NCBI RefSeq assembly: GCF_004010195.1
Contig: NC_057718.1
Coordinates: 89,605,800-89,669,799 of the forward strand
From: Chiloscyllium plagiosum
Lineage: Eukaryota
Direction of reading: 5' to 3'
DNA: 64,000 bases
The translations under genes were made by a program, and so were the position numbers. Of the stretch, positions 1,971-38,000 are shown one piece after another (positions within the stretch are counted from its first letter, which is position 1; the number at the start of each line of letters is the position of its first letter). The notes beneath the pieces are model-generated. The model did no database searches, was not told where the DNA came from, and worked only from the letters and a program-made list of their open reading frames with translations.

Positions 1971-2079
1971 CTTCAGAACTGACTGCAACTCTCCGTACTT
2001 TCTGGGATTGGAGGCGTCATTCCGGATCTCCATCAGCTGCTTATTCTTTGTCAGAAGCCATTTTGATTGTTCGGAATAT
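1971..2079 (-). CDS. SYNE1: nesprin-1-like exon: (R)[36 protein letters not shown]
   Basis: 109 nt, ttgcag|A...AAG|gtttgt; completes the AG|A Arg codon of exon 6343-6560; aligns without gaps to the recalled human FSEFSSWISTNETQLKGIKGEAIDTANHGEVKRAVE. Confidence 0.85.
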
Positions 2080-5000
2080 CTGCAAAAGGACGAGAGGGAG
2101 TGTTTTCACACACACAGACGTAGAACAGAATAGTGAAGAAACCGGCCCTTCAGCACAACAAATCCACACCGACCCTCCAAAGAGTATCCCACCCAGACCC
2201 ATTCCCCTATCACTCTACATTTACCCCTGACTAATGCACCTAACCTACACATCCCTGGACACTATGGGTAATTTAGCCTGGCCAAGTCACCTGACTTACA
2301 TATCTTTGGATTATGGGAGGAAACACCCACAGACACAGGGAGAATGTGCAAACTCCACACAGGCAGTTGCCCAAGGCTGGAATCGAACCCAGGTCCCTGG
2401 TGCAGTGAGGCAGCAGTGCTAACCACTGAGCCACTGTGCCGCCCGTTAAACCATGGTGAATGTGGGAATACGGGTATAAGTTGGGATGCTCTTCGAAGGG
2501 TCAGTGCAGACTCAATGGGCCGAATGGCCTCTGTGCACTGCAGGGATACTGTATGGGACAGTCCTTGTACCTGTCTTTCCCGGTCTCCCTCTTGAAGAGT
2601 TCGTCGAAGTGCACCATCTTCTGCCGTGTGATGGTGTGCAGTTTGAGGCGGGGCCGAAGACGGTGCAGGAGCTGCAGGTGGTTATAGAGCCGACCCTTGC
2701 CGTCTCTCCTCATGCAGCTGCTGGGTCCCCAGAAGATGAAGATCGGGTCGCGGCTGGCGTTGAGGAGCTCGCTCCCTTTCTGCAGCAGCCGCTGGATGCT
2801 GGAGTGCGCGACCACCCGCAGGCTGGTCCTGCGGCCCACATCCTCCTGGTAACCCCGTGTCGGGGCGTCGTTCATCCTGATGACGCACTCGGCGCGGTCG
2901 ATCTCTGCTCCCCGCCCGCTCCCGATGAGTTGCCCAGAGCTGGTGACCAGAGCGCAGTCCTTACAGTGGACCTGCAGAGCCTGAAACAACAACAGCAACA
3001 AAACCAGGCCTCAGTCAATCCTTTGCTGAAACAATGAAGGCAGGAGAGCGCCCAAAATACTCCACATGACACTCCCTACTCAGGGGTCACCTGGGAAGGC
3101 AAAGAGTATCCCACCCAGACCCATTCCCCTATCACTCTACATTTACCCCTGACTAATGCACCTAACCTACACATCCCTGGACACTATGGGTAATTTAGCC
3201 TGGCCAAGTCACCTGACTTACATATCTTTGGATTATGGGAGGAAACACCCACAGACACAGGGAGAATGTGCAAACTCCACACAGGCAGTTGCCCAAGGCT
3301 GGAATCGAACCCAGGTCCCTGGTGCTGTGAGGCAGCAGTGCTCACCACTAAGCCACCACACCAACACTTAAAATGCGAAGTACTTCTTGAGGCAGAGCCT
3401 GAATCATCTGTCTAACAACAGCATTGGGTGTGTATTCTGGGAAAACGTATGAGAGGACACATGCAAATATCCTGAAAAGGAATGGGCACACAGCTCCAGT
3501 AGAAGAGCCACCACAGGTATGATTGGTCAAATGGCCTCCTCCAGAGCTGCTGGGTTTCCAAACTGCCCCAAGCTCTCGGTGAGTTCCTGCCTAACATTGT
3601 TTCATCCCCTCCACACCTCTATCTCAAGCAATGCCTCGTGCTTAGGCCTTTCATCCACTCCTGAATTCCTCCTGTCGTCTCTCCTCCAAATTCCCCAAAT
3701 TGTCACTCAACCTCACGTTCACATTAACTCTCCAGAGAGTACACGACCTCCACTTTGCCAAGACCCAGAGCCTCCCTCTCTCTCTCGGATGCCAATCCAG
3801 AGTGGCCCTTCCTGGTTCACCCTCACCATCCACATCGGCCTTTGGGAATCTCTCTCTCACTTGACCCCACGGAAGAATCCCCCAAACTCAGAGGAGCAGA
3901 TGGAGAAGGAGCAGAAGGAGGACATTCAGCCCGTCGAGCCTGCTGCCTGATTCGATGAGATTGCAGTTGAGCTGATTGTAACCTCAAACCCATATTCCCA
4001 CCAAACCCTCTCACCCGGTGGGAAGAGTTAAACTTTGCAATGGTATTCCCCTGGCCAGAGTCATACGGAATGCAGCTACGTCTGGTTACCTTTCTTTCCC
4101 ACTCATCACATTCCCGATCCCAGGCAACTAGTTGGTCAATATGCACTTAGAGAGTCATAGAGTCACACAGCATGGAAACAGACCTCTCAGTCAATGCCGA
4201 ACATAATCCCAGTCTTCTGCCTCCTCACTCCTCATCAATTCCTCCACAGTCTCCAGTTCCAACCTCGTGCTTGATCTCATCACACCTGACAAGACACTTT
4301 ACCTAGTGATCCAGCATCAATCAGGCCTACCGTGAGCAACATGTCTCCAAATCCTCTCGCTATTCCGGAACCTTCTGACCTTCCCTGTCCCTTCGACCTC
4401 TGACCTTTCCCATCAGGGCTTCAGTCGTTTGGTGACTTCCAAAACCAAAACCGACCGCTCACTTGGATTCTACCCAACGTTCCACTGGAGGCCTGCTTGC
4501 ACTGGGAGACCTAGAACATTCCAAGCCGCTAACAACTGCATGGAGCACCAAGGTGGTTTTGAGCCTGGGAGGGGGTCATGTTAATCCTCAGAAACAGGTG
4601 AGCTGAAGTTGAGCCAGATGCTAAATCTTCAGACATCTGAAACCTGACTCCAGCCGGCCCACATCCAGACTTAACACGCTAAACCACTCAGGATTGTGAA
4701 GTAAAAACCAGGTACCAAATTTTGGATTCATGCTACATTTACTTACCAGAACAAAACAATATAAATCTCAGCTTCCTGCCTAGCCAACCCTAAATGCCCC
4801 AGCATACTTACTTCATTCTCATCTTTTCTAATCAACCTGTCCACAGCATAGAATCCCTACAGTGTAGGAACAGGCCCTTCAGCCCAACAAGTCCACACTA
4901 ACCCTCCAAAGAGTAACCCACCCAGACCCATTCCCCTACATTTACCCCTAACAAAAGTACCTAACCTGCACATCCCTGAATACTACAGGCAATTTAGCAT

Positions 5001-8000
5001 GGCCATTTCACCTAACCTGCACATCTTTAGATACCTCTGGAGCAGGTGGGATTTGAACCTAGACCGTCTAGCCCAGAGGTAGGGACATTACCATTGTATG
5101 CAAGAATCCTTATGCCTTTGTCAGCTGTTCTGAAAGTGCTTAATCGATCAATAGCTGTCACCTTTTTTTAACAGTTTTTAACAGTTAAAAAAATTAACAA
5201 TTATTGACATTGGAAGTGTTAATATTTTAAAGTCTAGAACAGAGTAGGAGAAAGCTAAGGCCGTGAGGGCACTATCTGCTGGGCTTAAGTGGACAAGAAC
5301 ATTCAATCCTGGCCCTTTAGCTCCATCACATATGACAAAACCTTAGCCACTTCCCAGTATTCTCAAAGCTCCACCCCATCAGGGGTCACAGCACCTTCAG
5401 GGGTCGGGGATGGGGCATCTCCCACCTCCACAAGCATCCCCAGGTTCCTTCAGAGCAGTCTGGGCCTGTTCCAGAATCCTCCCCACCCGATTTTAAACCA
5501 ATCATGAAGTCTTCCCAGTGGGGATTACATTAAAATGAGAAAGCACTTTGAAACAGAGAAGGCTGAGGTGGGGTGGGGAGGGGAATTTCTGACTGAGGTG
5601 TATAAGATTATGAAGGGCCTGGACAGGGGTGGATAGAGAGCAGCTGTTTCCTTCAGTCAAAGGGTCAATAACAACTGGGCATAATCTTCGAAGCGTAAGA
5701 CAAGAAGTTTAGAGGGGGCGTGAGGAAAAACACCAAGGGTTGGCAGAGGTCTGGAATACAATACATGGGGAGTGCTGTTGAGGTGAGAATCCTCGTAACG
5801 TTTAGAAAGTCATTGGATGAGCACCTGAAGTCCATAACATTCAAGGCTATGGGCCTAGTACGGGTAACTGGGACTAGTGTAGACGGTAGTGGAAAAGTGT
5901 GGTGTTGGAAAAGCACAGCCGGTCAGGCAGCATCTGAGGAGCAGGAGAGTCACCATTTTGAGCATAAGCCCTTCATTAGACTTCCAGATGAAGAGCTTTT
6001 CTTGAAATGTTGACTCTCCTGCTCCTCAGATGCTGCCTGACCTGCTGTGCTTTTCCAGCGCCACACTCTTCAACTCTGTTTTCCAGCATCTGCACTCCTC
6101 ACTTTTTCCTAGTGTAGACAATAGTCTATGTTTGGCAGTACAGGCTAGATGGGCCGAAGAGCCTATTCAGTACGGTATGATTCTATGATTCAAAACTCCG
6201 CAGGACGTGGGGGACAGTGAACTTTGTACTTCCTGGATCAATCTTGTGAGAGACGGCTCCAGTTTGGCCAGGAGCCCACTCCTAAGCTACTTTGAGGGAA
6301 AGTTAATAAACCCCAGGTCACGGTATCACTCATCACTGTTACCTCGTCCTGTACTCCTTCCATTTGTCGGGCTGATCCAATATTTTCTGGTAGGTGGCAT
6401 CAATAAGTCCTTGCAATTCCCTCAGCGTCTTTTTGTCCATTTCGTGTTTTGTCCTGATCCCCTCGTACTTCCGAGATTCCGGCAGCTTCTGACAGAGGTC
6501 TCCGATCACCTTGCCCCGCTTCCTGCACCACTCGAACTTCCCAGTCTCGGAGAAAAACTCCTGAAAAGGGAAATCAGTCGTTGGTGGAGCCCATCAGTCA
6601 TGGTAAGAGGCTGAATGGGATCCCGAGGGACGTCTTCAAATCTGATTCCCCCCCCCCCCCCCAATCCGGGATCTCAAACCCGAGAAGGAGGAGCGCATGA
6701 GTCTAGGGCATGGCCACCGACATGGTGCCATCCAGATGGGAAGCCATATACACGCGCTGGGATAAAGGTGGGACTGGAGAAGCCTCAGAGAAAGGAATTG
6801 GAAAATTGTGCTGGCTAAGCAAATAATATAACATACCCTCGAATCCCTTCAACATGGAAGCAGGCCATTCAGCCCAATCCACACTAACCCTCCAAAGAGC
6901 ATCCCAACCCCCTTTCCCTCCAACCCTGCATGTCCCATGGCTAACCCACCTAGCCTGCACATTATGGGGCAATCTCACATGGCCAATCCCCCAAGCCTGT
7001 ACATCTTTGGACTGTGGGAGGAAACCAGAGCACACCCGACACAGAGAACATGCAAACACCACACAGACAGTTGCCCAAGAGTGGAATCAAACCCAGGTCC
7101 CTGACACTGTGAGGCAGCAGCGCTAATCACTGAGCCATTATGCTGCACCATACCAGTGATGGAATAATGATTTCATTTATTACTGTCACATGTACTGAGA
7201 TACAGTGAAAGGTATTGCCGTGCATGCTAGCTGGACAAATCATACCATACATAAGTCTATCAGGATGAAGGGTGTGTGGAACTCTGGAACCTCACAGAGG
7301 TAAAGTAGACTGTGTAACCAGTGTTGTAAAGGAAAAATAAATAGTAATTCTTGAAGTGCAAATATCGAGCTCATTCCCAGCACATCTTAAAGGGAAACCA
7401 ACAATGTAACTGAGCATTAATCATAAAATAAGTCTGTCTTGAGAGTCAGGATTGTAAAGAAAAATGGGCGGGGACTCAATTCAGAATGAAAATACAGGAT
7501 GATAAACGATCTGGGTAAAATTAGAGGAGATGGCCACTCTGTCCTTAACTGAGTATGAACATGGCTGCCGATGCTCCACCAAGTGGCCGCCTAGTGGAAC
7601 CACATGACCTGATGGTGCCAAGGCTGAGGGCCATGTCATAGAGTCACAGAGATGTATAGCACAGAAACAGACCCTTCGGTCCAACCCGTCCATGCCGACC
7701 AGATATCCCAATCCAATCTAGTCCCACCTGCCAGCACCCAACCCATATCCCTCCAAACCCTTCCTATTCATATACCCATCCAAATGCCTCTTAAATGTTG
7801 CAATTGTAAAAAAGATAGCCGTCCTTGGGTGGGCTCAAACCACCAGCCTTTCAGTTAATAGCCAAACGCACTAACTGATTGCACAACTGTGATTTGGGCA
7901 AATTCAGTGTTCGCAAAATAAGTATGAAATTCATCTGTGACATCATGCAAAATGAAACCATTTAATCTATATAAATCAATGTTGAAATGGCACACTCATT

Positions 8001-11000
8001 TATAAGTGCAAAATGATGCATTTTGTTTGGAAGATAACAAAAGTCACTAAGTCTGCAGGAAGAATGAGTCTAAATGGGGTGCAAGAGCAAAGATGTATAA
8101 GATATCCTAACTCACAAATCATGAAAGGTAGTTACAGATGCTAACAAGGTCATAAACCAAAATAGAATTTGCACTGCAGTTCATTTCTATAGAGAGATTC
8201 ATAGAATCCCTACAGCTCAGAAAGAGGCCATTTGGCCCACTGAGTCAGTAATAACCCTCCAAAGAACATCCCAATCAGAATCAACAACCATTCCACTCCT
8301 GTATTTCCCATGGCTAATCCACCAAAGCTCGTGGACAATTCTGGTCTCCTTCCTATCGGAAAGATGTTGTGAAACTTGAAAGGGTTCAGAAAAGANNNNN
8401 NNNNNNNNNNNNNNNNNNNNNNNNNNNNNNNNNNNNNNNNNNNNNNNNNNNNNNNNNNNNNNNNNNNNNNNNNNNNNNNNNNNNNNNNNNAACATTTAAA
8501 AGGCATCTGGATGGGTATATGAATAGGAAGGGTTTGGAGGGATATGGGCCGAGTGGTGACAGGTGGGACTAGATTGGGTTGGGATATCTGGTCGGCATGG
8601 ACAGGTTGGACCGAAGGGTCTGTTTCCGTGCTGTACATCTCTATGACTCTATGCAGGGGGAAAGCTACACAGACATAGGGAGAACACAAAAACAGTCACC
8701 TCGGAGTGGAATTGAACCTGGATCCTTGAGGCAGCAGTGCTAAATACCGAGCCACCATGCTACCCAGGAGCAGGCCTCCATCTGGGTTGAGACCACGTGG
8801 GCAACTGGATTTGAAGAACTCTCGGGGTATGTTATATTTATACGTGGCTTGGTTTGATCGCAACTTTGGTCTCCACGTTACATAAAAGGATCTAGAGGGA
8901 CTGGAGAAAATTGCTGGCATCCCACACATGTATAAAACAAACGGAGGCCACTCTGTCGCTCGTCAAGTCCTGTCTGGAGACAAGCCAGCAAGTGACCACA
9001 CTCAGTGCTTACCTTGTGTTGTACAATAAGCTCTTCACTGTTGGTGCTGGTTAAGAGCTTGTTCTCCTTTTCCAGTTGTAGTTTACATTCCTCCATCATC
9101 TCCACCAGCTTATTTCTGGCTGCTTCAATCTGGAGGCGGAGCAAGTGGTAGGGGGCTTCAGCCTGAAGGTCCTGAAATAATCCAAGCAGCATCGTGAAAA
9201 TCAAAAGCCAAGGTTTGGAAAGGTATACTGGCGATCACTCGAGACCAGCTCTTCCTGTCACACCATGGGCTTGAGCCACCTCAGGCAGGCTTTACAAACG
9301 TCCGGTGGAATGCAATCCTGGGATTCCCACCCCTTGTCAGCGACTTTGATCCGTAGTGGAATAAGGGTCTCGGTTATCAGCCTGCTTCTGCTGCCCCAAT
9401 CTTGCAAGTTCCAATCTGGGAGTGGGCTTTTCAGATCGTCCCTAATACCACAGAGTGGCACCTCAAGGCAGTGTGCTTTACCCCAGCTCAGGGGCGGGGC
9501 AGGGGCGAACCATGATTAGAGATGGGAAGCGTTTGAGAGTTAAGCTCAAAAGGGGTTGCCAACTTCGTGTGTCGTGTCGGAAGACTATGTGGTAAGGGCT
9601 TCGTTTTGAAAAGGTAAGTGACCATTAAATCAAACAGAATTGTGACACATACATTAGAATTCATCATCCCGCTAGATAAAGTACTACTCTGCACCATACA
9701 ACATTGGAATCAAAATCTGACCATGTAAATTACAGAGGAACCTCGATTATCCGGCATTCAATTATCCAAATTTTGGATTATCTGAACAAGATCGCAAGGT
9801 CCTGATGCTTGGTTAAACTGTGTTACCTGGCATTTGGTTATCCAAACAAAATACTCCCAACCCGTGTCGCTCAGGTAATCGAGGTTCCTCTGTATTGGCT
9901 CAGCCATCTGTTTGGCTGTTTCAAAGCTCCAACAGATGGCTCAGTTTCTGACTGACCTCAAAGGTTTTAATGTATTCGCCTCTAGATGCTTTGTTGACCA
10001 AGTTGATCAATGGGATATCATTATGAATGCTTGCCTGAATTCCAAACTTATTAATGGATTCTGACAGGGTCTATAGGCTTGGATCTAGTGGTAGATTTAT
10101 GAACCATTAAAAGGATTATGTTTTGCAAGTAGATCATGTTGTACTGTTTGATTGCTTTAGCTGATTTATATAGTGGACAGAAATGAATCCTAGAGGGGAC
10201 AAGGTGTCAATGATGGTTAGGGGGCCTCATATTCTGATTCAGAACCAGGCCAATGTCTCAGTACAAAAGGGTGGGCCATATGACCCTACCCTGTGCTCAA
10301 GGGGGTAAACACCACCAGTTGAGTGGCAGGATCATGCTATCAAGACATCTGACCCCTCCCCTGCTCCTGACAATTCCCAATTCCCAATTCCCGGATGAAA
10401 ATCTAGCCCAAGGCCTCAGGATCTTAGTGCTGAGGGACGCCAACTTGTAGATCCATATTATTCTATATTGACAATGACAGTCAGCCTTGCTGTACATTGT
10501 ATCCGTAAACTGAGGGATGCTGGGACTGAAACTCAGGGTTCCTTTAACATATAATACAAAAACCCCTTTAGACTTCAATCACTAACCTCATGCCCCCAAC
10601 ATTATTACCATGTTTACTGTGCAGAAACTCAGACAAAATGGGGTGGCACGGTGGCTCAGTGGTTAGCACTGCTACATCACAGCAGCCAGGACCCAGGTTT
10701 GGTTCCACCCTTGGGTGACTGCCTGTGTAGAGTTTTCATGTCCACCCTGTGTCTGCGTGGGTATCCCCCGGGTGCTCCGGTTTCCTCCTACAGTCCAAAG
10801 ATGTGCATGTTAGGTGGATTGGCCCTGCTAAATTGCCCATAATGCCCAGGAATGTGCAGGTTAGGTGGACTGGCTATGCTAAATTCCCCATAATGCCCAG
10901 GGATATGCAGGTTAGGTGGATTGGTTATGGGAAATGCAGGGTTATGGGGTAGGGGATATATCTGGGTGAGATGCTCTTCGGAGGGTCGGTGTGGACTCGA

Positions 11001-20000: not shown

Positions 20001-23000
20001 TGGGATTGGCACCAACCTGGTGTCTCGCCTTGAAACCGGCTACGGAGTGACCCTCAGCTTCCCCCGGGGAGGTAATTTGATTGGCATGATTCAACGACTC
20101 AAAGAAAGCTGTGATTTCCTTCTCCAGTTCATCCAGGGGACTCAGCAACTGCTGAGCTTCCAGGAGCAAACACTGACAGCGCTCCCGAACCTATAGAGAA
20201 GGGCAGACATTAACATCAGACAGTGAGAGACACACCGAGTGTGACTTATTCAACATCAAGTCACTTTCTCAACATTTGTATTGGAACAGACATTTTCAAC
20301 ACCAACCTCTTAAAAGTTTGATTTGGAGTTTTAACCACTGAGGGAGTGCTGCACTATCTAGGGGTCAGTACTGAGGGAGTGCTGCACTGTCATCAGGTCA
20401 GTACTGAGGGAGTGCTGCAGTGTCGTCGGGTCAGTACTGAGGGAGTGCTACACTGTCGTCGGGTCAGTACTGAGGGAGTGCTGCACTGTCGTCGGGTCAG
20501 TACTGAGGGAGCGCTCTATTGTCATAGGGTCAGCACTGAGGGAGTGCTGCACTGTTGGAGGGTCAGTACTGAGGGAGTGCTGCACTATCAGAGGATCAGT
20601 ACTGAGGGAGTGCTGCACTATAAGAGGGTCAGTACTGAGGGAGTGCTGCACTATAAGAGGGTCAGTACTGAAGGAGTGCTGCACTGTCAGAGGGTTAGTA
20701 CTGAGGGAGCGCTCCATTGTCAGAGGGTCAGTACTGACGGAGTGCTGCACTATCAGAGGGTCAGTACTGAGGGAGTGCTGCACTGTCAGAAAGTCAGGAC
20801 TAATGGAGTGCTGCACTTTCAGAGGGTCAGTACTTAGGGAGTGCTGCACTGTCGAAGGGACAGTACTGAGGGAGTGCTGCACTGTCACAGAGTCAGTACT
20901 GAGGGTGTGCTGCACTGTCACAGGGTCAGTACTGACAGAGTGCCGCACTGTCAGAAGGTTAGTAGTGAGGGAGTGCAACACTGTCGGAGAGTCAGTTCTG
21001 TGGGAGTGCCACACTGTCAGAGAGTCGATACTGAGGGAGCACTGCACTGTCACAGGGTCAGTACTGAGGGAGTGCTGCACTGTCGGAGAGTCAGTACTGA
21101 GGGAGTGTTGCAATGTCACAGAGACAGCATTGAGTGAGTGCTGCACTATTGGAAGGTCAGTACTGAGTGAGTGCTGCACTGTTGGAGGATCAGTACTGAG
21201 GGAGTGCTGCACTGTCAAAGGGTCAGCACTGAGGGAGTGCTGCACTGTCAAAGAGTCAGTACTGAGGGAATAATGCACTCTCGGAGGGTCAGTACTGAGG
21301 GAGTGCTGCACTGTCAAAGGGTCAGCACTGAGGGAGTGCTGCACTGTCAAAGGGTCAGTACTGAGGGAGTGTTGCACTGTCAAAGGGTCAGTACTGAGGG
21401 AGTGCTGCACTGTTGGATGGTTAGTACTGAGGAAGCAATGCACTGGTAAAAGTGTTGTATCTCAGGTGAGAATACAAAGGGTATATAATCCCTTTATCCA
21501 GGTGGAAGATTAAGACACTATTGTACTGTAAGAGGAAGCCATTTTCCTAGAATTGTGGCCTACATTTATCCCTCATCCAAACACAGAGAACCATCTTACT
21601 TTTCGTTTGTGGGAACTGGATCCTGTGTTGACCTGCTTGAGACAATATGATGTGAAGACAATAAACTACATCAGAACAAATGCTTATTCACCCCTGGGGG
21701 TGGGGAATGAGTTTCACCATTTAACACCATCTGGATAGGTACAAAAGCAAATCAAAGAAAGATTTTTAAATTATGCAGATTAAACTTTTCAAGAGGGGGC
21801 AATGGAAAACTACAAAAGTGAAAAAACCAGAACAAAAAGTCACAATTGCAGTTTAAAATACCTTTAACCGTGAGGGTAAACCCACCTCCTGAGAAGGGGT
21901 GGGGCATTGGAGACGAGGGGACAACTCTGTGGAACAGGGTTTTAGAACAAGGTTCCTTCTGACTGGAATTCCCTGGGGGATGTGGGACTGGTGAATGTAT
22001 CCATTATTGAATAATGTCGAACTGTCGAACTTGTATGATATGACTGACGATAAAGCTCAATTCTCTCAGTCTCACATCCCTTTCTGTAGGGAGCTCAGAG
22101 TGACTGAGAAGGTACAGGGCTAGGACAGTTTAATACTGTTCTGTTTATCATTCGCTGTCTCCGCAAAACTCTTCAGCTTGTCCACTTCATCCCCCTGCGA
22201 GTACTGCCTGAGGCAGAGAACCTGGCATGGACCACTCTACAGGTTGTTCTGTTATAATGCGACAGTTCTGTTTTTCTGCGGCCCCAGTACTATTGAAAAT
22301 CACGACTACGGAAAACCGTGACAGAAAATCGCACTGCAGAGAATTGTTAAGAAAAAAAATCACTTCAGTAGAAAGGTTGCACTATCCAAACAACGTCCAC
22401 AATTCGTCAATTGTGTTCCAGCCAATTTGCGCTGACGAAACGCACGTTACAGCAGAACGGCCTGTACTCGCACTGGACAAAATGAACCACGGTGCTCAGA
22501 ATGGTTCACCCTGGTCAGGTGGACACATGATTCATCGGACACCCATTGACCATCGCTGACCAGAAGGCCACACTGGTCAGATTGAGCACACAATTGGTCT
22601 TCTTCAGACTGGTCTAACTGTTTCACTCCTACCCTGAGGCACATGTTAATTGCTGAGTCCTGATTAAAACTCTCCCATTTACTCAGAACTCTGAGCTTCC
22701 CTCATTCTGAGGCTGATCCTTACTTTTATCAGCTGATCCTTAATGGTGGACATCGTGGACAGCATCTGTGTTACTTCATCCTGCGGGGTGTCCTTTGTTA
22801 ACTGCTGAGCTGTCTTGGAAACCAGTTTGTACTGAGCTTCCATTATTGGCACCTTTTGTTTTATAACCTGCACAGGACACCAGAAAAACAAACATCAGCT
22901 CGTAACAATCGTACATCCAGCAACCAGCACTTTAAAACTAACGTCAAGGAAGAAAGACCTTTTAGAGACACCTGCCTTTATACATCAATGGATCAAAGTG

Positions 23001-29000: not shown

Positions 29001-32000
29001 ATCTCAAGTCCTCACACTCCAGGATGATATCAATCTGTGTCAGCATCATGTGATATTCACAAGGGGGTTAATTCTATACTCATTGATGTTTCAATTCATA
29101 CAAGCCTGCTGTTAACCAACAGAAGCTCACTATTATCGGATGTCAGTTCAGTCTCACCCCATACCAGCTCACCACTTCCCTATTATCCAACTGTTTTTTT
29201 TAAAATTAATTCTCGGGATCAGGGTGATCCCTGGCTAGACCCATCAGGCAGTTAAGAGTCAACCCCATCGCTGTGGGTCTGGAGTCACATGTAAGCCAGA
29301 CCAGGTAAGGATGGCACTTTCCTCCCCGAGAGGGCATTAGTGAACCAGATGGGTTTTGCACCCCCCCCACAAACATGGTCACCATTAGAATCTTCGTTCC
29401 ATTTTTTATAACACCTCATAGAGTCATACAGCACAGAAACGGACCCTTCATTCCAACTTATCCATGGCGACCAGATATCCTAACCTAAGCTAACTTGGCC
29501 CATGTCCCTCTAAACCCTTCCTATTCATATCCCCATCCAGATGCCCTTTAAATGCTGTAATTATACCAGCCTCCACCACTTCCTCTGGAGGCTCATTCCA
29601 TACTCCAAACACTTAGTGGGGTTTGAACCTGGGTCCCCAGAGCATTAACCGAGTTTCTGGACTAATAGTCGAGTGATAATACCAGTAGGCCACTGTCTCC
29701 CCACTGATCACAATCCTGCATTTGCACCGGATTAGCCTGACATCAATGTATTGTCACCACTGCCTGCTATCACTCACCTATTGCCCCTTTTTTTTTAGAT
29801 TACTTACAGTGTGGAAACAGGCCCTTCGGCCCAACAAATCCACACCGACCTGCCGAATCGCACCCACCCAGACCCATTCCCCTACATTTACCCCTGCACC
29901 TAACACTACAGGCAATTTAGCGTGGCCAATTCACCTAACCTGCACATTTTTGGAGTGTGGGAGGAAACCGGAGCACCCGGAGGAAACCCACGCAGACACG
30001 GGGAGAATGTGCAAACTCCACACAGTCGGTCGCCTGAGGCGGGAATTGAACCCGGGTCTCTGGAGCTGTGAGGCAGCAGTGCTAACCACTGTGCCACCGT
30101 GCCGCCCACTTTTCCAGCTCACTGTTACCCAGTGCCTGCTCACTGCTTCTCCTGTACCCCTTCACTTTGTCATTACACTGATGGTTCAGTTGTCTTTAAA
30201 AAGAGAAGGGAGAAGACTCCCATTGTACAGGTTTTACCTTCTTGACGAGTTCTGGCTGATTCAGCATTTTCTCGCCGTCTTCCAGCCAGGCCTGGAGAGT
30301 TGCCACTGTGCTGCTGTACCTGTCCCAGTTGGTGACCACCTCCTCCAGCATGCTCCTCACACTGCGCACCTCCACTGACAGATTGCGCCACTGCACCGTC
30401 GAGTCGCTCAGGAACTTGCTGACGGTCTCTCTCTCTTCAGCTGCAGGGGACAAGACGAGACAGGGTGAGATCCTCGAGTACAGCGGGCAGAGGATGCGGG
30501 CAAAGATGCCAGCCCCCGGCGCCCAGAGGTAGCGGTTACCTGAGTTTTCGACTTTCAGGTAAGCATCGGCCGCGTGCTTCAGAGACTGGAAGGTGACCTC
30601 ATAGTGTCCAAAGAACTTGTTGCCTTCCACAAATGACTGCAGAGAAAGATCAAAGCTGTCAACGGGGGATTTGGGAGTCTTTTACACTGAAAAACTAATA
30701 AGCTAACTTTGAAAAAAACAATGGACTGATTCGAGAGTGATGTGCTGGAAAAGCACAGCAGGCCGGGTAGCATTTGAGGAGCAGGAGAATCGACATTTTG
30801 GGCATAAGCCCTTCATCAGGAATGAGGATCAACCGCGCCCAACAGACTGATGCCGATAAGTCAAGAGGGAATTGTAAAGGGGAGGAACTGAAGTCATGCA
30901 GAATCTCAGTGACATTTCCCAGATTTCCACACCCTGTTTTTCCTTTGTAAACAACAGCTTCCTGATACTACCCCAGAATGGTCTGGTTCTAAGATTAAGG
31001 GAATGCTCTTCTGCTGAACGATTGCCTTCCATTCTGGTCAGCACATGACGGGGTCGATGTGGAAGCTCTGGAGAGGGTGTGGAAGAGGTTTACCAGGATG
31101 CTGCCTGGATTAGAGGCTACAAGCTGTCAGGAGAGGCTGGATAGACTGGGGTTGTTTTCTCTGACGTGGCGGAGGCTGAGGGAAGGCTTGATAGAATTCC
31201 ATAAAATAATGAGATGCATAGATAGGATTGACAGTCCGAATCTTTCTTCCCCAGAGTTGAAATATCTCATACTCAGGGGCACACAATAAAGGTGAGAGGG
31301 GGAAAGTTCAAAGGAGATGTGAGGGACAAGGTTGTTACACACAGTGTGGTAGGAGTCTGGAACGCACTACCAGGGGTGGTAGCAGAGGCAGTTACAATAG
31401 GGCTGTTTAAGGGGCTTTTAGATAAGCACATGAATATGCGAGAAATGGAGGGATATGGACTAAGGGAAGGTAGAAGGGATTAAGTTAATTTGGCGCCATG
31501 TTCAGCACAATCTCGTGGGCTGAAGGGCCTGTACCTGTGCTGTACAGGTCTCCATTCTATACATTACCCCTGAATGGCCTGGCTCTAATATTAAGGAAAT
31601 GTCCCTTGCTTGTGGAACAGCCCCTCCTGCCACCCTGTCAATTTCTAAGTAAAAACAATGACTGCAGATGCTGGAAACCAGATTCTGGATTAGTGGTGCT
31701 GGAAGAGCACAGCAGTTCAGGCAGCATCCAAGGAGCTTCGAAATCGACGTTTCGGGCAAAAGCCCTTTATCAGGAATAAAGGCAGTGAGCCTGAAGTGTG
31801 GAGAGATAAGCTAGAGGAGGGTGACCCTGTCAGTTTCTCTCTGTCCACCCTGTCAGTTTCTCTCTGTCCACCCTGTCAGTTTCTCTCTGTCCACCCTGTC
31901 AGTTTCTCTCTGTCCACCCTGTCAGTTTCTCTCTGTCCACCCTGTCAGTTTCTCTCTGTCCACCCTGTCAGTTTCTCTCTGTCCACCCTGTCAGTTTCTC

Positions 32001-35000
32001 TCTGTCCACCCTGTCAGTTTCTCTCTGTCCACCCTGTCAGTTTCTCTCTGTCCACCCTGTCAGTTTCTCTCTGTCCACCCTGTCAGTTTCTCTCTGTCCA
32101 CCCTGTCAGTTTCTCTCTGTCCACCCTGTCAGTTTCTCTCTGTCCACCCTGTCAGTTTCTCTCTGTCCACCCTGTCAGTTTCTCTCTGTCCACCCTGTCA
32201 GTTTCTCTCTGTCCACCCTGTCAGTTTCTCTCTGTCCACCCTGTCAGTTTCTCTCTGTCCACCCTGTCAGTTTCTCTCTGTCCACCCTGTCAGTTTCTCT
32301 CTGTCCACCCTGTCAGTTTCTCTCTGTCCACCCTGTCAGTTTCTCTCTGTCCACCCTGTCAGTTTCTCTCTGTCCACCCTGTCAGTTTCTCTCTGTCCAC
32401 CCTGTCAGTTTCTCTCTGTCCACCCTGTCAGTTTCTCTCTGTCCACCCTGTCAGTTTCTCTCTGTCCACCCTGTCAGTTTCTCTCTGTCCACCCTGTCAG
32501 TTTCTCTCTGTCCACCCTGTCAGTTTCTCTCTGTCCACCCTGTCAGTTTCTCTCTGTCCACCCTGTCAGTTTCTCTCTGTCCACCCTGTCAGTTTCTCTC
32601 TGTCCACCCTGTCAGTTTCTCTCTGTCCACCCTGTCAGTTTCTCTCTGTCCACCCTGTCAGTTTCTCTCTGTCCACCCTGTCAGTTTCTCTCTGTCCACC
32701 CTGTCAGTTTCTCTCTGTCCACCCTGTCAGTTTCTCTCTGTCCACCCTGTCAGTTTCTCTCTGTCCACCCTGTCAGTTTCTCTCTGTCCACCCTGTCAGT
32801 TTCTCTCTGTCCACCCTGTCAGTTTCTCTCTGTCCACCCTGTCAGTTTCTCTCTGTCCACCCTGTCAGTTTCTCTCTGTCCACCCTGTCAGTTTCTCTCT
32901 GTCCACCCTGTCAGTTTCTCTCTGTCCACCCTGTCAGTTTCTCTCTGTCCACCCTGTCAGTTTCTCTCTGTCCACCCTGTCAGTTTCTCTCTGTCCACCC
33001 TGTCAGTTTCTCTCTGTCCACCCTGTCAGTTTCTCTCTGTCCACCCTGTCAGTTTCTCTCTGTCCACCCTGTCAGTTTCTCTCTGTCCACCCTGTCAGTT
33101 TCTCTCTGTCCACCCTGTCAGTTTCTCTCTGTCCACCCTGTCAGTTTCTCTCTGTCCACCCTGTCAGTTTCTCTCTGTCCACCCTGTCAGTTTCTCTCTG
33201 TCCACCCTGTCAGTTTCTCTCTGTCCACCCTGTCAGTTTCTCTCTGTCCACCCTGTCAGTTTCTCTCTGTCCACCCTGTCAGTTTCTCTCTGTCCACCCT
33301 GTCAGTTTCTCTCTGTCCACCCTGTCAGTTTCTCTCTGTCCACCCTGTCAGTTTCTCTCTGTCCACCCTGTCAGTTTCTCTCTGTCCACCCTGTCAGTTT
33401 CTCTCTGTCCACCCTGTCAGTTTCTCTCTGTCCACCCTGTCAGTTTCTCTCTGTCCACCCTGTCAGTTTCTCTCTGTCCACCCTGTCAGTTTCTCTCTGT
33501 CCACCCTGTCAGTTTCTCTCTGTCCACCCTGTCAGTTTCTCTCTGTCCACCCTGTCAGTTTCTCTCTGTCCACCCTGTCAGTTTCTCTCTGTCCACCCTG
33601 TCAGTTTCTCTCTGTCCACCCTGTCAGTTTCTCTCTGTCCACCCTGTCAGTTTCTCTCTGTCCACCCTGTCAGTTTCTCTCTGTCCACCCTGTCAGTTTC
33701 TCTCTGTCCACCCTGTCAGTTTCTCTCTGTCCACCCTGTCAGTTTCTCTCTGTCCACCCTGTCAGTTTCTCTCTGTCCACCCTGTCAGTTTCTCTCTGTC
33801 CACCCTGTCAGTTTCTCTCTGTCCACCCTGTCAGTTTCTCTCTGTCCACCCTGTCAGTTTCTCTCTGTCCACCCTGTCAGTTTCTCTCTGTCCACCCTGT
33901 CAGTTTCTCTCTGTCCACCCTGTCAGTTTCTCTCTGTCCACCCTGTCAGTTTCTCTCTGTCCACCCTGTCAGTTTCTCTCTGTCCACCCTGTCAGTTTCT
34001 CTCTGTCCACCCTGTCAGTTTCTCTCTGTCCACCCTGTCAGTTTCTCTCTGTCCACCCTGTCAGTTTCTCTCTGTCCACCCTGTCAGTTTCTCTCTGTCC
34101 ACCCTGTCAGTTTCTCTCTGTCCACCCTGTCAGTTTCTCTCTGTCCACCCTGTCAGTTTCTCTCTGTCCACCCTGTCAGTTTCTCTCTGTCCACCCTGTC
34201 AGTTTCTCTCTGTCCACCCTGTCAGTTTCTCTCTGTCCACCCTGTCAGTTTCTCTCTGTCCACCCTGTCAGTTTCTCTCTGTCCACCCTGTCAGTTTCTC
34301 TCTGTCCACCCTGTCAGTTTCTCTCTGTCCACCCTGTCAGTTTCTCTCTGTCCACCCTGTCAGTTTCTCTCTGTCCACCCTGTCAGTTTCTCTCTGTCCA
34401 CCCTGTCAGTTTCTCTCTGTCCACCCTGTCAGTTTCTCTCTGTCCACCCTGTCAGTTTCTCTCTGTCCACCCTGTCAGTTTCTCTCTGTCCACCCTGTCA
34501 GTTTCTCTCTGTCCACCCTGTCAGTTTCTCTCTGTCCACCCTGTCAGTTTCTCTCTGTCCACCCTGTCAGTTTCTCTCTGTCCACCCTGTCAGTTTCTCT
34601 CTGTCCACCCTGTCAGTTTCTCTCTGTCCACCCTGTCAGTTTCTCTCTGTCCACCCTGTCAGTTTCTCTCTGTCCACCCTGTCAGTTTCTCTCTGTCCAC
34701 CCTGTCAGTTTCTCTCTGTCCACCCTGTCAGCTTTTTCCTTTTCACCCTGTCAGTTTCTCTCTGACCACCCTGTCAGTTTCTCTCTGTCCACCCTGTCAG
34801 TTTCTCTCTGTCCACCCTGTCAGTTTCTCTCACCCATCCTGTCAGTTTCTCTCTGTCCACCCTGTCAGTTTCTCTCTGTCCACCCTGTCAGTTTCTCTCT
34901 ATCAACCCTGTCAGTTTCTCTCTATCAACCCTGTCAGTTTCTCTCACCCATCGAGTCAGTTTCTCTCTATCAACCCTGTCAATTTCTCTCTGTCCACCCT

Positions 35001-38000
35001 GTCAGTTTCTCTCTGACCACCCTGTCAATTTCTCTCTGTCCACCCTGTCAGTTTCTCTCTGTCCACCCTGTCAGTTTCTCTCTGTCCACCCTGTCAGTTT
35101 CTCTCCAGTCCTGGAGAAGAGTCTTACCAACCTCAAAACGTTAACTCTGTTTCTCTCTCCAAAGATACGGCCAGACCTGCTGAGTTTCTCCAGCACCTTC
35201 CGGGTCTTTTTTTTTTGGTCAAAACCTTGGATCATCTAGAACACCTGAACACACCGCCTCTGCCCAGCCGGCTGAGATTTTCTAAGTAATTTCTGTTTTC
35301 GTTTCTGATTTCCAGCCGACGCTGTTTTGTTTGAATCTCGTGATCTTCCGTACGCGGGGCAAGTCAAACTAAGTTAATGCAAGTTACCCTTGCAATTTAA
35401 CCCTTTTAGCCCCAATGTCATTCTGATAAATCTACACTGCACCACGCTTGAGGTCAATGTATCCTTCCTGAGGTATGGTGCGCAATCCTCAATTCAGTCT
35501 CTGAAATGAAGGTCTAACCAGGCGCTCATACAACACATTGAGTTCATGGTCACTAACCCAACATTATGGGCATTAACTACTTTGACATACTCATGGACTG
35601 CTGCACCATTCCTGAATATAATCTACATCCAATTCTTCTTCCTTCCACCACCTCATGAGACAGACAAAGCACACGCCTGTTCAAACAACTATCTTTGACT
35701 TGAGAGGTACTACTCTGGGTCAATTCACAGAATCTCTGTGGAGAAGGCCATTCAGCCCATCACATCCACACCAACCCTCCAAACAGCATCCCATGCGGAC
35801 CCACCCCCTATTTCCTGTGGCTAACTTACTTAGATTGGACACTATGGAAAACGTAGCGCAGCCAAACCACTGCATGTCCTTGGAAGGTAACCAGAGCACC
35901 CGGAGGAAACTCACATCAACACGGGGAGAATGTGTGAACTCCACACAGACAGACACCCCGAGGCTGGAATTGAACACAGGTCCCTGGCGCTGTGAGGCAG
36001 CAGTGCTAATCACTGAGCCACCATGTCGCCCAACTAGCAACGCAACATCTGCTCAAATAGCTACCTTTTACAGGGCATTGGCAAGACTGTGGCTTGAGAG
36101 GTACTACTCTGGGTCAAGTGTCAAGACACACCTCTGTTCTCACTACCTTCCAGAGGTGTATCAGAAAGACCTACAGGTTTCCAATCAATGGCTGTAGGAC
36201 TGTTACGAACGCATCATCCGTGGCCAACAAATGAGGGTCCAAACAGGAGGCAAGGAGTGTACTGCAAGCCCTCCCCTCCACCTATCAGTGACATTCCTGA
36301 TGACGTGGGTCTCACTGAAATATTCCTCACAATGTAATTTTGGAGGAGATGCTGCACGGATTCCTTCCTGCCGTATTTGATGATCCACGATTTGAGTTTG
36401 GTTTCAGCCAGCACCAGGAAGGCCAGGAGGCGATACTTCAACTCCAGAAAGTCCAGTCTCGTTAAATGGAGCTTGGAGGCGGTCGTAATGAATTCGAACC
36501 TGGGGAGAGCAAGCGGACGCAAGGTTATCACTGAGGGGGCGGGGGGGGGGGGCAGACCATGGCCAAAGAGATATGCAGACATATAAACGGGGAGTAAGTG
36601 GCATCCACCATCACCTTAGCCACAGGAAATGGTAAGGAAAGCTGACAGCTAGACAGTGCCTTGAATGATTTCAGAAGGTTCCAAATTTTTTCCTAGGGTC
36701 GGGGGTGTGCAAAACTAGAGGGCATAGGTTGAAGGTGAGAGGGGACCCAAGGGGCAACACTTTCACACAGAGGGCGGTGCGTGTGTGGGATGCACTGCTA
36801 GAGGAGGTGGTCGATGCGGGTACAGTGACAACATTTGAAAGACATTTGGACAGGCACATGGATAGGAAAGGTTTCGAGGGATGTGGACCAAATGCAGGCA
36901 AATGGGTCTCGTTCAGTTTAGGAATCCTGGTCACCGAGTTGGACCAAAGGGTTTGTTTCCGTGCTGCGTGACTCTACAACTCTCTACAGCTATTCCGCGA
37001 TGTAGTCTCTGCTGGAAACGGCAGCAGCTCATTTGCGCACAGCAAGATCCCACAATCCAAAATCTGTCGATGAAAACAAAAAAAAATCTGTTTCCGTGCT
37101 AACGGTTGACAGATCAATATTTTCCGGGGCAACGGAGAAGCAGTGCGCAGGGTCAGCTCCTTCAAAACGACGCCAGGCAACCTTTGAGCCGAGACGGCAG
37201 GCAGGGCCTAATGTCTCAGCCGAGGAACCGTGCCGTCGAACGGCACAGAATTCCCTCGCCACCAAGCCTAGACGTTGTCCTCAAGTCTCCAGGATCGGGC
37301 TCAAACTCACATCCGAAGGGGGTGAGAAAATGTTACCCAGCAGAGCCACAGGACAAAAACAGCCAAAAGGAAAATCTACCCAAGACTGAAGGTGGGAAGG
37401 TGCCACCATCCAGATGCAATATGGGTTGTCTGCTTCCAGAGAAGTGGTCCCCTGTTATACTGATGTAATGGATAAGTCCAAATAGCACATCTCAGCTCAG
37501 CATCACCTGGGTGGGTCAACATGCATTGCTCAACAAAATGAGATTATCAACTCGTTACCTTGCTGCCTTTATTGAGATCTTGCTGTGCACAGGGCAGCTG
37601 CCGACCTCACAGCTACACTGCGAAGGCGTCATTGATCGCGCAACTTGGAGACATCGTGAGAATCGACGCAAGGTGCTACGCAAATGCAGACTTTCACTGC
37701 CCTTCAACTAGCTACCAGGATGAGCTCAATCGGGTATTCATTTGCAAAATCTGAAATCTGGCACCGCCAAGTCCCACAAAGACTCAGCGGGACACGCGCC
37801 AGTCTCTTGGTCAGCACGTCGTTTTATTTTCAGTATTAGTTGCAGCAACCCCCCCTCCCTCCGAAGTTTACATCGAAAATGTGACATAAGAGAAAGGTTA
37901 GGGCTCCCACCGTTTAACCGGACGCAGTGCTTTTCAGACACAGAGTTAACAGGGTTTACTGATGAGCCGCATGGACAGTTACTCACCGCTCTGCAATATC

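What the first reader, a model, noticed from the sequence alone, without database searches (positions are those of the whole stretch)
2404..3099. Intact sialyltransferase (ST6GALNAC5-like) exon stranded inside a nesprin-1 intron, same strand
Seen: a 410-nt exon encoding GT29 sialylmotif L, with an open frame, a pyrimidine-rich AG acceptor and a GT donor. It lies between nesprin exons 6343-6560 and 1971-2079, which join each other in phase (AG|A = Arg). No transmembrane/stem exon or sialylmotif S/VS exon is visible in the window. Known: in human, ST6GALNAC5 and SYNE1 are unlinked genes. Inference: about 0.7 kb of genomic DNA (exon plus both intron flanks, so not a retrocopy) was recently copied from another locus. 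This looks like exon shuffling caught at an early stage.
Basis: partly seen in the sequence, partly recalled or inferred. Interest (0 to 1): 0.88.

Follow-up and report, generated by a model that had tools for sequence, protein, structure and literature searches.

The report
Copied sialyltransferase exon in nesprin intron
A perfect copy of one exon of a shark sialyltransferase gene, with its intron edges, sits inside an intron of the unlinked nesprin-1-like gene; it looks like a very young scar of DNA copying guided by a dispersed repeat, would break the host reading frame if spliced in, and is not yet confirmed by reads.

Summary
On the minus strand, 2980..2571 is an open 410-nt exon with AG acceptor and GT donor. 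Its 136 residues match Pfam GT29 and are 100% identical to a shark ST6GALNAC5 protein. It lies between nesprin-1-like exons 6560..6343 and 2079..1971, which join in phase.

The assembly holds one other copy, identical over 772 bp (window 2328-3099), inside a complete four-block ST6GALNAC5 gene on another scaffold.

The left joint lies in a 76-bp block shared by a resident old SINE-like repeat and the donor's repeat. The right joint (3099|3100) is blunt. 150-226 bp of the resident repeat is duplicated, and the insertion totals 922 bp.

Best reading: a very young templated insertion made by break repair or replication template switching (0.55). Rivals: the same event copied from unspliced RNA (0.15); an assembly artefact (0.22).

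"Exon shuffling" is only partly supported: inclusion would shift the frame and stop after 35 new residues following the junction Arg codon. No read or RNA evidence could be obtained. The scan has noted similar exon patches before, one in this genome. This is a new member of a known kind.

The parts
6343..6560 (-). Upstream host exon (nesprin-1-like), 218 nt, ends with AG of a split codon
   Evidence: (100% identical to P0121 over 72 aa)
1971..2079 (-). Downstream host exon (nesprin-1-like), 109 nt, starts with the third base of the split codon
   Evidence: the joint 6343>2079 reproduces [17 protein letters not shown] of P0121, 17 of 17
2132..2177 (-). Tail part of the resident SINE-like repeat, present once
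   Evidence: family D5; family matches start at about 2130-2132
2178..2327 (-). Body of the resident repeat, first copy. Identical to 3100-3249, but 29 mismatches to the donor's repeat
2328..2403 (-). 76-bp block identical in the resident repeat (both copies) and the donor's repeat. The left joint lies somewhere in it
   Evidence: last mismatch to donor at 2327; first mismatch to the second copy at 2404
2404..2440 (-). Head of the donor's repeat. At 2404, 2421 and 2428 it carries the donor's bases, not those of the resident repeat
2441..2570 (-). First 130 nt of the donor intron that follows the exon, copied with it. 2449-2553 is itself an old repeat
2571..2980 (-). Copy of the second coding block of ST6GALNAC5 (aa 72-207 plus 2 nt), GT29 domain part, open frame
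2981..3099 (-). Last 119 nt of the donor intron before the exon, with pyrimidine tract (15 of 20) and AG
3099..3100 (.). Right joint, blunt: donor ...CCTGGGAAGG | CAAAGAGTATCCC... resident repeat restarting at the equivalent of 2178. No shared bases
3100..3325 (-). Second copy of the resident repeat's body, identical to 2178-2403 (226 of 226)
3326..3364 (-). Resident repeat's own head, running into single-copy flank
   Evidence: (D2)

Best explanation
This is a real, very young germline templated insertion.

Before the event (inferred), the host intron held one old SINE-like repeat in the same orientation as the gene.

The event (inferred): a broken or stalled DNA end inside that repeat paired with a 76-bp identical block of another copy of the repeat family. 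That copy lies in the intron after the second coding block of ST6GALNAC5, on another scaffold. Synthesis copied 696-772 bp of donor DNA: repeat head, 130 nt of intron, the whole 410-nt exon and 119 nt of upstream intron. It then left the donor and was joined, without homology, back to the resident repeat 150-226 bp behind the point of departure. That part of the repeat is therefore duplicated.

This is the pattern of replication template switching (FoSTeS/MMBIR-like), or of one-sided strand invasion finished by end joining.

Shown: the sequence relations, the joints and the intact donor gene.
Inferred: the order of events, DNA as the template, and that the event happened in the animal and not in the assembler.

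Consequence (inferred): the exon arrives as a complete splicing unit in sense orientation. If used, it shifts the nesprin frame to a stop after 35 new residues following the junction Arg codon. It is therefore either skipped, and nearly neutral, or acts as a weak poison exon for the giant isoforms. It is not a working new domain.
For: Donor and copy:
- Window 2441-3095 has exactly one other full-length match in the 3.56-Gb assembly, on C11, at 100%. Identity runs 2328-3099 without a mismatch, while the preceding 190 bp of repeat differ at 37 sites.
- The donor sits in a complete gene. P0001 matches C11 in four ordered blocks (aa 5-73, 71-209, 207-245, 243-321), and the window holds only aa 71-209.

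Joints:
- The first repeat copy is a chimera. 2178-2403 equals the second copy at 226 of 226, and 2404, 2421 and 2428 carry donor bases.
- The right joint is blunt and lies in sequence that is unique in the donor for about 100 nt beyond it. No repeat boundary there would make an assembler stop.

Age of the resident repeat:
- It is old. The best other copies scored were 89% identical or less (40 scored of 3862 candidates). The perfect pair is therefore a duplication of this copy, not two fresh retrotranspositions.

Host gene:
- All 18 host introns in the window resolve with GT-AG and reproduce the relative's protein.
- The copied exon's donor matches 6 of 9 consensus positions (host range 6-9). 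Its acceptor tract is 15 of 20 pyrimidines (host range 9-17).

Known processes of this kind:
- Templated insertions from distant loci (PMC5110952; abstract and sections 4, 5, 8, 9 read).
- Repeat-guided template switching that leaves a chimeric repeat (PMC6071635; passages read).
Against: - No read-level support.
- No second contig with an empty or filled allele exists in the assembly.
- The assembly is gapped. There are 95 N at window 8396-8490, and 384 N only 244 bp from the donor breakpoint. Perfect identity is also what a misassembly would give.
- Another exon patch in this same genome was left unconfirmed by an earlier agent. That could mean a recurrent process or a recurrent artefact.
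- A 150-226 bp target duplication is not explained by a simple two-ended break. It needs staggered ends or a replicative switch.
- DNA cannot be told from unspliced RNA as the template from sequence alone.
Confidence: 0.55

Rival explanations
1. Assembly artefact. The 696-772 donor bases and the duplicated repeat part were put into the nesprin intron by contig joining, scaffolding or gap filling through the shared repeat block. The animal would have only the single resident repeat there.
For: - Both duplicated parts are perfect: 772 of 772 to the donor and 226 of 226 between the repeat copies.
- The assembly has 101,977 contigs and N gaps of differing sizes near both loci.
- The left joint lies in a block shared by a family with thousands of copies.
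- No independent data confirm the joints.
- A similar unconfirmed case exists in this genome.
Against: - The right joint has no shared bases. In the donor it falls in unique sequence, about 100 nt before the next repeat. A graph path or contig end has no reason to stop there or to rejoin the resident repeat at 2178.
- Among at least 3862 family candidates, the filler would have had to pick this one donor.
- There is no N within 5 kb of the insertion on the window side.
- It is the only such pair in 64 kb.
Confidence: 0.22
2. Same insertion, but copied from unspliced ST6GALNAC5 pre-mRNA by a reverse transcriptase. A nicked top-strand end in the resident repeat anneals to the repeat copy embedded, in sense, in the pre-mRNA. 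It primes cDNA through the intron, exon and intron. A second nick 150-226 bp away then yields a long target duplication. This would be a target-primed or break-patch event.
For: - The donor repeat, the exon and the host gene all read on the same strand. The pre-mRNA is therefore complementary to the strand that would prime.
- The copy ends abruptly inside an intron, as a 5'-truncated cDNA would.
- The target is duplicated.
- The review of templated insertions reports that patches at breaks are enriched for transcribed sequence and are reduced more than three-fold by reverse-transcriptase inhibitors (PMC5110952, section 5 read).
Against: - There is no poly(A) or A-rich end at either joint.
- The duplication is far longer than the duplications of 'at least 5 bp' described for class 1 events (PMC5110952, section 9).
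- Priming would be internal to the repeat, not at its tail.
- Germline expression of the donor gene is unknown.
- Nothing in the sequence requires RNA.
Confidence: 0.15
3. Retrotransposition of the donor's repeat with upstream (5') flanking sequence carried along, inserted by the partner LINE machinery.
For: In the donor the exon lies directly upstream of a repeat copy in the same orientation.
Against: - The body and tail of the repeat next to the copy (2138-2327) differ from the donor's at 37 of 190 sites, and its body (2178-2327) equals the resident copy. The donor's repeat as a whole was therefore not inserted.
- No short target duplication or tail was seen at the ends of the 922 bp.
Confidence: 0.03
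4. A working arrangement: interleaved genes, or a true alternative exon of the nesprin-1-like gene or of ST6GALNAC5.
For: Open frame, canonical splice sites, sense orientation.
Against: - The parent gene keeps its own identical exon on C11, and its other blocks are on that scaffold only.
- Inclusion in the host shifts the frame to a stop.
- The relative's protein joins the flanking exons directly.
- In the search with the upstream host exon, the only protein of 127-2000 aa found was P0121, so no truncated form with this exon is on record.
Confidence: 0.02

Closest known systems
Templated sequence insertion polymorphisms (TSIPs), class 2, of the human genome (Onozawa and Aplan 2016, PMC5110952; abstract and sections 4, 5, 8, 9 read)
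   Same: A few hundred bases are copied from a distant, still intact locus into an unrelated site. Intronic sequence can be the template. At least one joint looks like end joining. The event is thought to be a germline break-repair scar and is often polymorphic.
   Different: One joint here uses 76 bp of repeat homology. 150-226 bp of target is duplicated, whereas class 2 has no target duplication and class 1 has short ones with poly(A). The experimental insertions described there were 73-414 bp, and this one is 696-772 bp. Polymorphism is untested here.
Alu/Alu-mediated rearrangements with a chimeric Alu at the joint, ascribed to template switching/MMBIR or MMEJ (Song et al. 2018, PMC6071635; passages read)
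   Same: Two diverged copies of a SINE family pair over a stretch of identity and leave a full-length chimeric repeat. The proposed mechanism is replicative template switching.
   Different: Those events are deletions or duplications between two repeats on one chromosome. Here only one of the two joints is in a repeat, the partner is on another scaffold, and the outcome is a small insertion carrying an exon.
Exon shuffling by L1 3' transduction, and gene-fragment capture by Pack-MULEs or Helitrons (recalled, not read here)
   Same: A piece of one gene, possibly an exon, is moved into another gene's intron.
   Different: No transposon ends, tail or short target duplication bracket the piece. 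The repeat beside it is the resident one, not the carrier.
Poison exons: cassette exons that bring a premature stop and trigger nonsense-mediated decay (recalled)
   Same: If spliced in, the 410-nt exon would bring a stop after 35 new residues, far upstream of the last host exon junction.
   Different: Known poison exons are regulated and often conserved. Here no use of the exon has been shown.
Earlier notes of this scan on exon copies pasted into introns (e1-7789024 in this genome; e1-7469782 and others elsewhere)
   Same: A single exon with its intron edges sits inside another gene's intron and is read as a break-repair patch.
   Different: Those notes are unchecked by me. This case is longer, perfect in identity, and has a repeat-homology joint plus a long target duplication.

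Membership tests
GT29 sialyltransferase (ST6GALNAC5), as a gene | Sequence match to the family's catalytic domain | tested here: met
   PF00777 at E 1.6e-21, 77 bits against a cut-off of 23. 100% identical to P0001.
GT29 sialyltransferase (ST6GALNAC5), as a gene | Complete protein: membrane anchor/stem block and the C-terminal catalytic blocks at the same locus | tested here: not met
   Only aa 71-209 of 321 match on this scaffold. The other three blocks are on C11 only. The copy is a gene fragment, not a family member in function.
Nesprin-1 (host gene) | N-terminal CH domains followed by nesprin-type spectrin repeats, exons colinear | tested here: met
   19 colinear minus-strand matches to aa 86-1137 of P0121. 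P0121 has CH and PF25034 Spectrin_SYNE1. The name nesprin-1-like is its source's. KASH end and synteny were not examined.
Processed retrocopy | Introns removed, poly(A) tail | tested here: not met
   130 and 119 nt of flanking intron are kept, and there is no A tract at either end.
Class 1 TSIP / LINE-mediated insertion | Short target duplication, poly(A) and a polyadenylation signal | tested here: not met
   None seen at the ends of the 922 bp. The duplication is 150-226 bp. Criteria taken from PMC5110952, section 9.
Class 2 TSIP / break-repair patch | Template from a distant locus that remains intact | tested here: met
   The donor on C11 is intact within a complete gene.
Class 2 TSIP / break-repair patch | End-joining features at both joints and no target duplication | tested here: not met
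   The right joint is blunt. The left joint lies in 76 bp of identity, and the target is duplicated. It works like a patch but departs from the class as defined.
Class 2 TSIP / break-repair patch | Polymorphic among individuals | not testable with these tools
Repeat-mediated template switching (Alu/Alu-type) | Chimeric repeat at the joint, with identity around the switch point | tested here: met
   The first repeat copy is resident up to 2327, shared over 2328-2403, and donor from 2404.
Repeat-mediated template switching (Alu/Alu-type) | Both breakpoints in a pair of repeats | tested here: not met
   On the donor side the second breakpoint lies in unique intron sequence.

The most novel reading that the evidence does not exclude
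Dispersed SINE copies serve as homology handles that let break repair transplant a whole, splice-ready exon between unlinked genes. Here the result would be a young, possibly still polymorphic allele whose copied exon is recognised in nesprin-1-like pre-mRNA. That would truncate or destabilise only the giant actin-binding isoforms. It would be a natural time-zero case of DNA-level exon shuffling whose fate (loss, poison exon, or later reframing) could be followed in a population.
Probability: 0.2. Interest if true: 0.65.

Novelty: new member of a known kind. Interest (0 to 1): 0.42.

Why it matters
Exon shuffling through introns is a textbook idea, but the first step is rarely seen before mutation blurs the joints. 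Here both joints can be read to the base, if the insertion is real. One uses 76 bp of identity between two 81%-alike repeat copies. The other is blunt. A stretch of target is duplicated. This would show that ordinary repair or replication errors, guided by interspersed repeats, can drop a complete splicing unit into another gene without any transposon.

It also shows why most such events fail: the exon's length and phase do not fit the host. In mouse, isoforms of nesprin 1 that carry the CH domains are dispensable for viability (PMC5496623, section 6 read). A frame-breaking exon at this N-terminal position could therefore be tolerated.

The practical point is that annotation pipelines could mis-score this locus, and that perfect short inter-scaffold copies need read-level checks.

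Tried and rejected
Nothing was laid, so there is no evidence on the joints, on polymorphism or on splicing.
- The look-up of sequencing runs listed no RNA holder.
- A protein search with the only long frame that crosses the right joint (3038-3190, 51 aa) found no candidate. An exact 41-base joint pattern found 0 stretches in metagenome contigs. Neither collection is expected to hold this DNA, so neither is evidence.
- Rfam (E up to 1) and ARAGORN gave 0 hits on the repeat. Calling it tRNA-derived rests only on A-box-like and B-box-like words that I recall and see. I therefore call it SINE-like, on its roughly 300-bp unit and at least 3862 candidates.
- A search for a second contig carrying the right flank found only the window itself at full length, 1 of 40 scored.
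- Circle integration by one crossover was rejected. It predicts a donor-type body in the second repeat copy, and that body is resident-type.
- Two independent retrotranspositions of a master repeat were rejected because the best other copies scored are 89% or less.
- Earlier notes near this place: none. By sequence: none.
- I did not compare the orthologous intron in other species, because no such genome is held here.
- I did not look up how the assembly was made.
Full report
**What is there**

The window is part of scaffold C9 of a 3.56-Gb, 101,977-contig vertebrate assembly. On the minus strand, 2980..2571 is a 410-nt exon. It has a pyrimidine-rich AG acceptor (ttgttgtttcag|GCT) and a GT donor (GACAG|gtacaa), inside a 169-codon open frame.

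Its 136 whole codons match Pfam GT29 (PF00777, E 1.6e-21, profile 52-118 of 272). They are 100% identical to P0001, a 321-aa protein that its source names ST6GALNAC5 isoform X2 of a bamboo shark. The ST6GALNAC5 proteins of the other cartilaginous fishes listed are 83-92% identical, one chimaera entry 71%.

**The host gene**

The upstream exon is 100% identical to P0121, a 1458-aa protein of a sister genus that its source names nesprin-1-like. P0121 itself carries CH domains and Pfam Spectrin_SYNE1.

The window holds aa 86-1137 of that protein in 19 colinear minus-strand matches. All 18 introns between them resolve with GT-AG and reproduce the protein across each joint. This includes 6343>2079, at 17 of 17 residues.

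**Where the exon comes from**

Window 2441-3095 has exactly one other full-length match in the assembly, at C11:11547969-11548623, with 655 of 655 identical. The other 38 scored matches are 100-nt pieces of an old repeat at 78-89%.

P0001 matches C11 in four ordered blocks on one strand:
- aa 5-73 at 11.504 Mb
- aa 71-209 at 11.548 Mb
- aa 207-245 at 11.560 Mb
- aa 243-321 at 11.575 Mb

On C9 it matches only aa 71-209. A 44%-identical paralogue lies upstream on C11.

The parent gene is therefore complete and keeps its own exon. The window has a copy of its second coding block with 119 nt of the intron before it and 130 nt of the intron after it. This refutes the 'interleaved genes' alternative and rules out a processed retrocopy.

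**The joints**

The copy sits between two copies of a SINE-like repeat that reads on the same strand as both genes. Base-by-base comparison gives:
- 2138-2327: window and donor differ at 37 of 190 sites. Both are old members of one repeat family.
- 2328-3099: window and donor are identical, 772 of 772.
- From 3100: they are unrelated.
- 2178-2403: the two window copies (offset 922) are identical, 226 of 226.
- 2404, 2421 and 2428: the two window copies differ, and the first copy carries the donor's bases. Past 2435 they part completely.

The first repeat copy is therefore a chimera:
- resident sequence up to 2327
- a 76-bp block common to all three (2328-2403)
- donor sequence from 2404

The right joint is blunt. 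Donor ...CCTGGGAAGG is followed by CAAAGAGTATCCC, which is the resident repeat restarting at the equivalent of 2178. The donor goes on with AGATGTGG, and the resident repeat has CCCTC before that point, so no bases are shared.

The insertion is 922 bp. It consists of 696-772 bp of donor plus 150-226 bp of duplicated target, depending on where in the shared block the switch fell. The inferred empty allele is the window without 2404-3325.

**Age and kind of the repeat**

The best other genomic copies of the resident repeat body that were scored are 89% identical or less (40 scored of 3862 candidates). The resident copy is therefore old, and the perfect pair is a duplication of that copy, not two new retrotranspositions.

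It is the only dispersed pair of 120 bp or more at 97% or more in the 64-kb window. Three pairs reach 95%.

With 0 differences in 922 compared bases, the rule of three puts divergence below about 0.3% (inference). The event is very recent, or was made by the assembler.

**How it most likely arose**

A homology joint, a blunt joint and a duplicated target together are what replication template switching gives. The steps would be:
1. A nascent strand copies the resident repeat.
2. It moves to the donor through the shared block.
3. It copies about 0.7 kb.
4. It returns, without homology, to a point 150-226 bp behind where it left.

One-sided invasion from a staggered break, finished by end joining, gives the same product.

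Repeat-guided switching that leaves a chimeric repeat is described for Alu pairs (PMC6071635, passages read). Insertions templated from distant intact loci are described as TSIPs (PMC5110952, abstract and sections 4, 5, 8, 9 read).

That review reports that experimental patches are enriched for transcribed sequence and are reduced more than three-fold by reverse-transcriptase inhibitors. Here the donor repeat, the exon and the host gene are all in sense, so unspliced ST6GALNAC5 pre-mRNA could equally have been the template. The nicked resident repeat would then be the primer, and the duplication a long target-site duplication. No poly(A) or short duplication supports a classical LINE event. 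Sequence alone cannot tell DNA from RNA as the template.

Two models fail:
- Carrying the exon along with the donor's repeat fails because the adjacent repeat body is resident-type.
- Integration of a donor circle fails because the second copy's body is resident-type.

**What it would do**

The copy brings its own acceptor region and donor site. By crude measures these lie within the host's range:

| Measure | Copied exon | 18 host sites |
|---|---|---|
| Donor, consensus positions matched (of 9) | 6 | 6-9, mean 7.3 |
| Acceptor tract, pyrimidines (of 20) | 15 | 9-17, mean 14.1 |
| Exon length (nt) | 410 | up to 399 |

Spliced after 6343, the split codon AG|G still gives Arg. The frame then reads 35 new residues and stops. 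410 is also not a multiple of three. It cannot add a sialyltransferase module to nesprin.

At most it is a poison exon for isoforms that start at the CH-domain end. Transcripts starting further downstream would not contain it (inference). In mouse, loss of CH-domain isoforms of nesprin 1 leaves viability and muscle function intact (PMC5496623, section 6 read), so tolerance is plausible.

The relative's protein joins the flanking exons directly. The search with the upstream exon found no protein of 127-2000 aa other than P0121.

**Could it be an artefact?**

This is the main open point.

For an artefact:
- Identity is perfect.
- The assembly is gapped. There are 95 N at window 8396-8490, and 384 N only 244 bp from the donor breakpoint.
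- No second contig carries either allele.

Against an artefact:
- The blunt joint shares no bases.
- On the donor side it falls in sequence that stays unique for about 100 nt more. Neither a graph path nor a contig end should stop there.
- A filler would have had to choose this one donor among thousands of repeat copies.

Runs of the same organism label from at least four samples, and of a related one, were listed. Two long-shot searches for the joint elsewhere found nothing and carry no weight.

**Verdict**

'Exon shuffling at an early stage' is only partly supported, because the exon does not fit the host frame and its use is untested.

| Reading | Weight |
|---|---|
| Real templated insertion copied from DNA | 0.55 |
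| Same event copied from unspliced RNA | 0.15 |
| Assembly artefact | 0.22 |
| All other readings | about 0.05 |

The kind is known: templated insertions and repeat-guided template switching. This scan has noted such exon patches before on other DNA. What is particular here is the clean hybrid anatomy and the intact, sense-oriented splicing unit.

Noticed in passing
window 31824-35105: A 23-bp tandem array of about 143 copies at 98% matches (unit ACCCTGTCAGTTTCTCTCTGTCC) inside a host intron. Long stretches are perfectly identical. It could be a real minisatellite or an assembly expansion.
   Followed up: partly
window 49533-50511 and 20337-21432: Two further minisatellites in host introns: a 52-nt unit (about 19 copies, 92%) and a 33-nt unit (about 33 copies, 84%). 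Both give long spurious open frames on the minus strand.
   Followed up: no
window 8396-8490, with 7636-7808 and 8491-8653: A 95-N assembly gap. Beside it, two inverted copies of one repeat each match 53004-53176 at 96%. The gap sits in a palindromic repeat pair.
   Followed up: no
L001 869-1252 (C11, 244 bp from the donor breakpoint): A 384-N gap in the donor intron, preceded by a high-copy repeat that is 90-94% identical to many loci and often occurs in inverted pairs.
   Followed up: partly
G000 C11:11196325-11341699 and C30:39636388-39641544: Paralogous GT29 blocks, 37-44% identical to P0001 upstream on C11 and 47-69% on C30. The C11 one upstream of ST6GALNAC5 fits the ST6GALNAC3-ST6GALNAC5 tandem that I recall from human 1p31.
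   Followed up: no
window 2449-2553: Part of the copied intron is itself an old interspersed repeat, 78-89% identical to at least 38 other loci. The donor intron was already repeat-rich on both sides of the exon.
   Followed up: no
same genome, about 88.66 Mb before the window on the same scaffold (note e1-7789024): An earlier agent reported a 213-base copy of a WDR70 exon with intron edges inside a Penelope element in an NCOA1 intron, joints unconfirmed. Two exon patches among 22 annotated windows suggest either a recurrent process or a recurrent artefact in this assembly.
   Followed up: no
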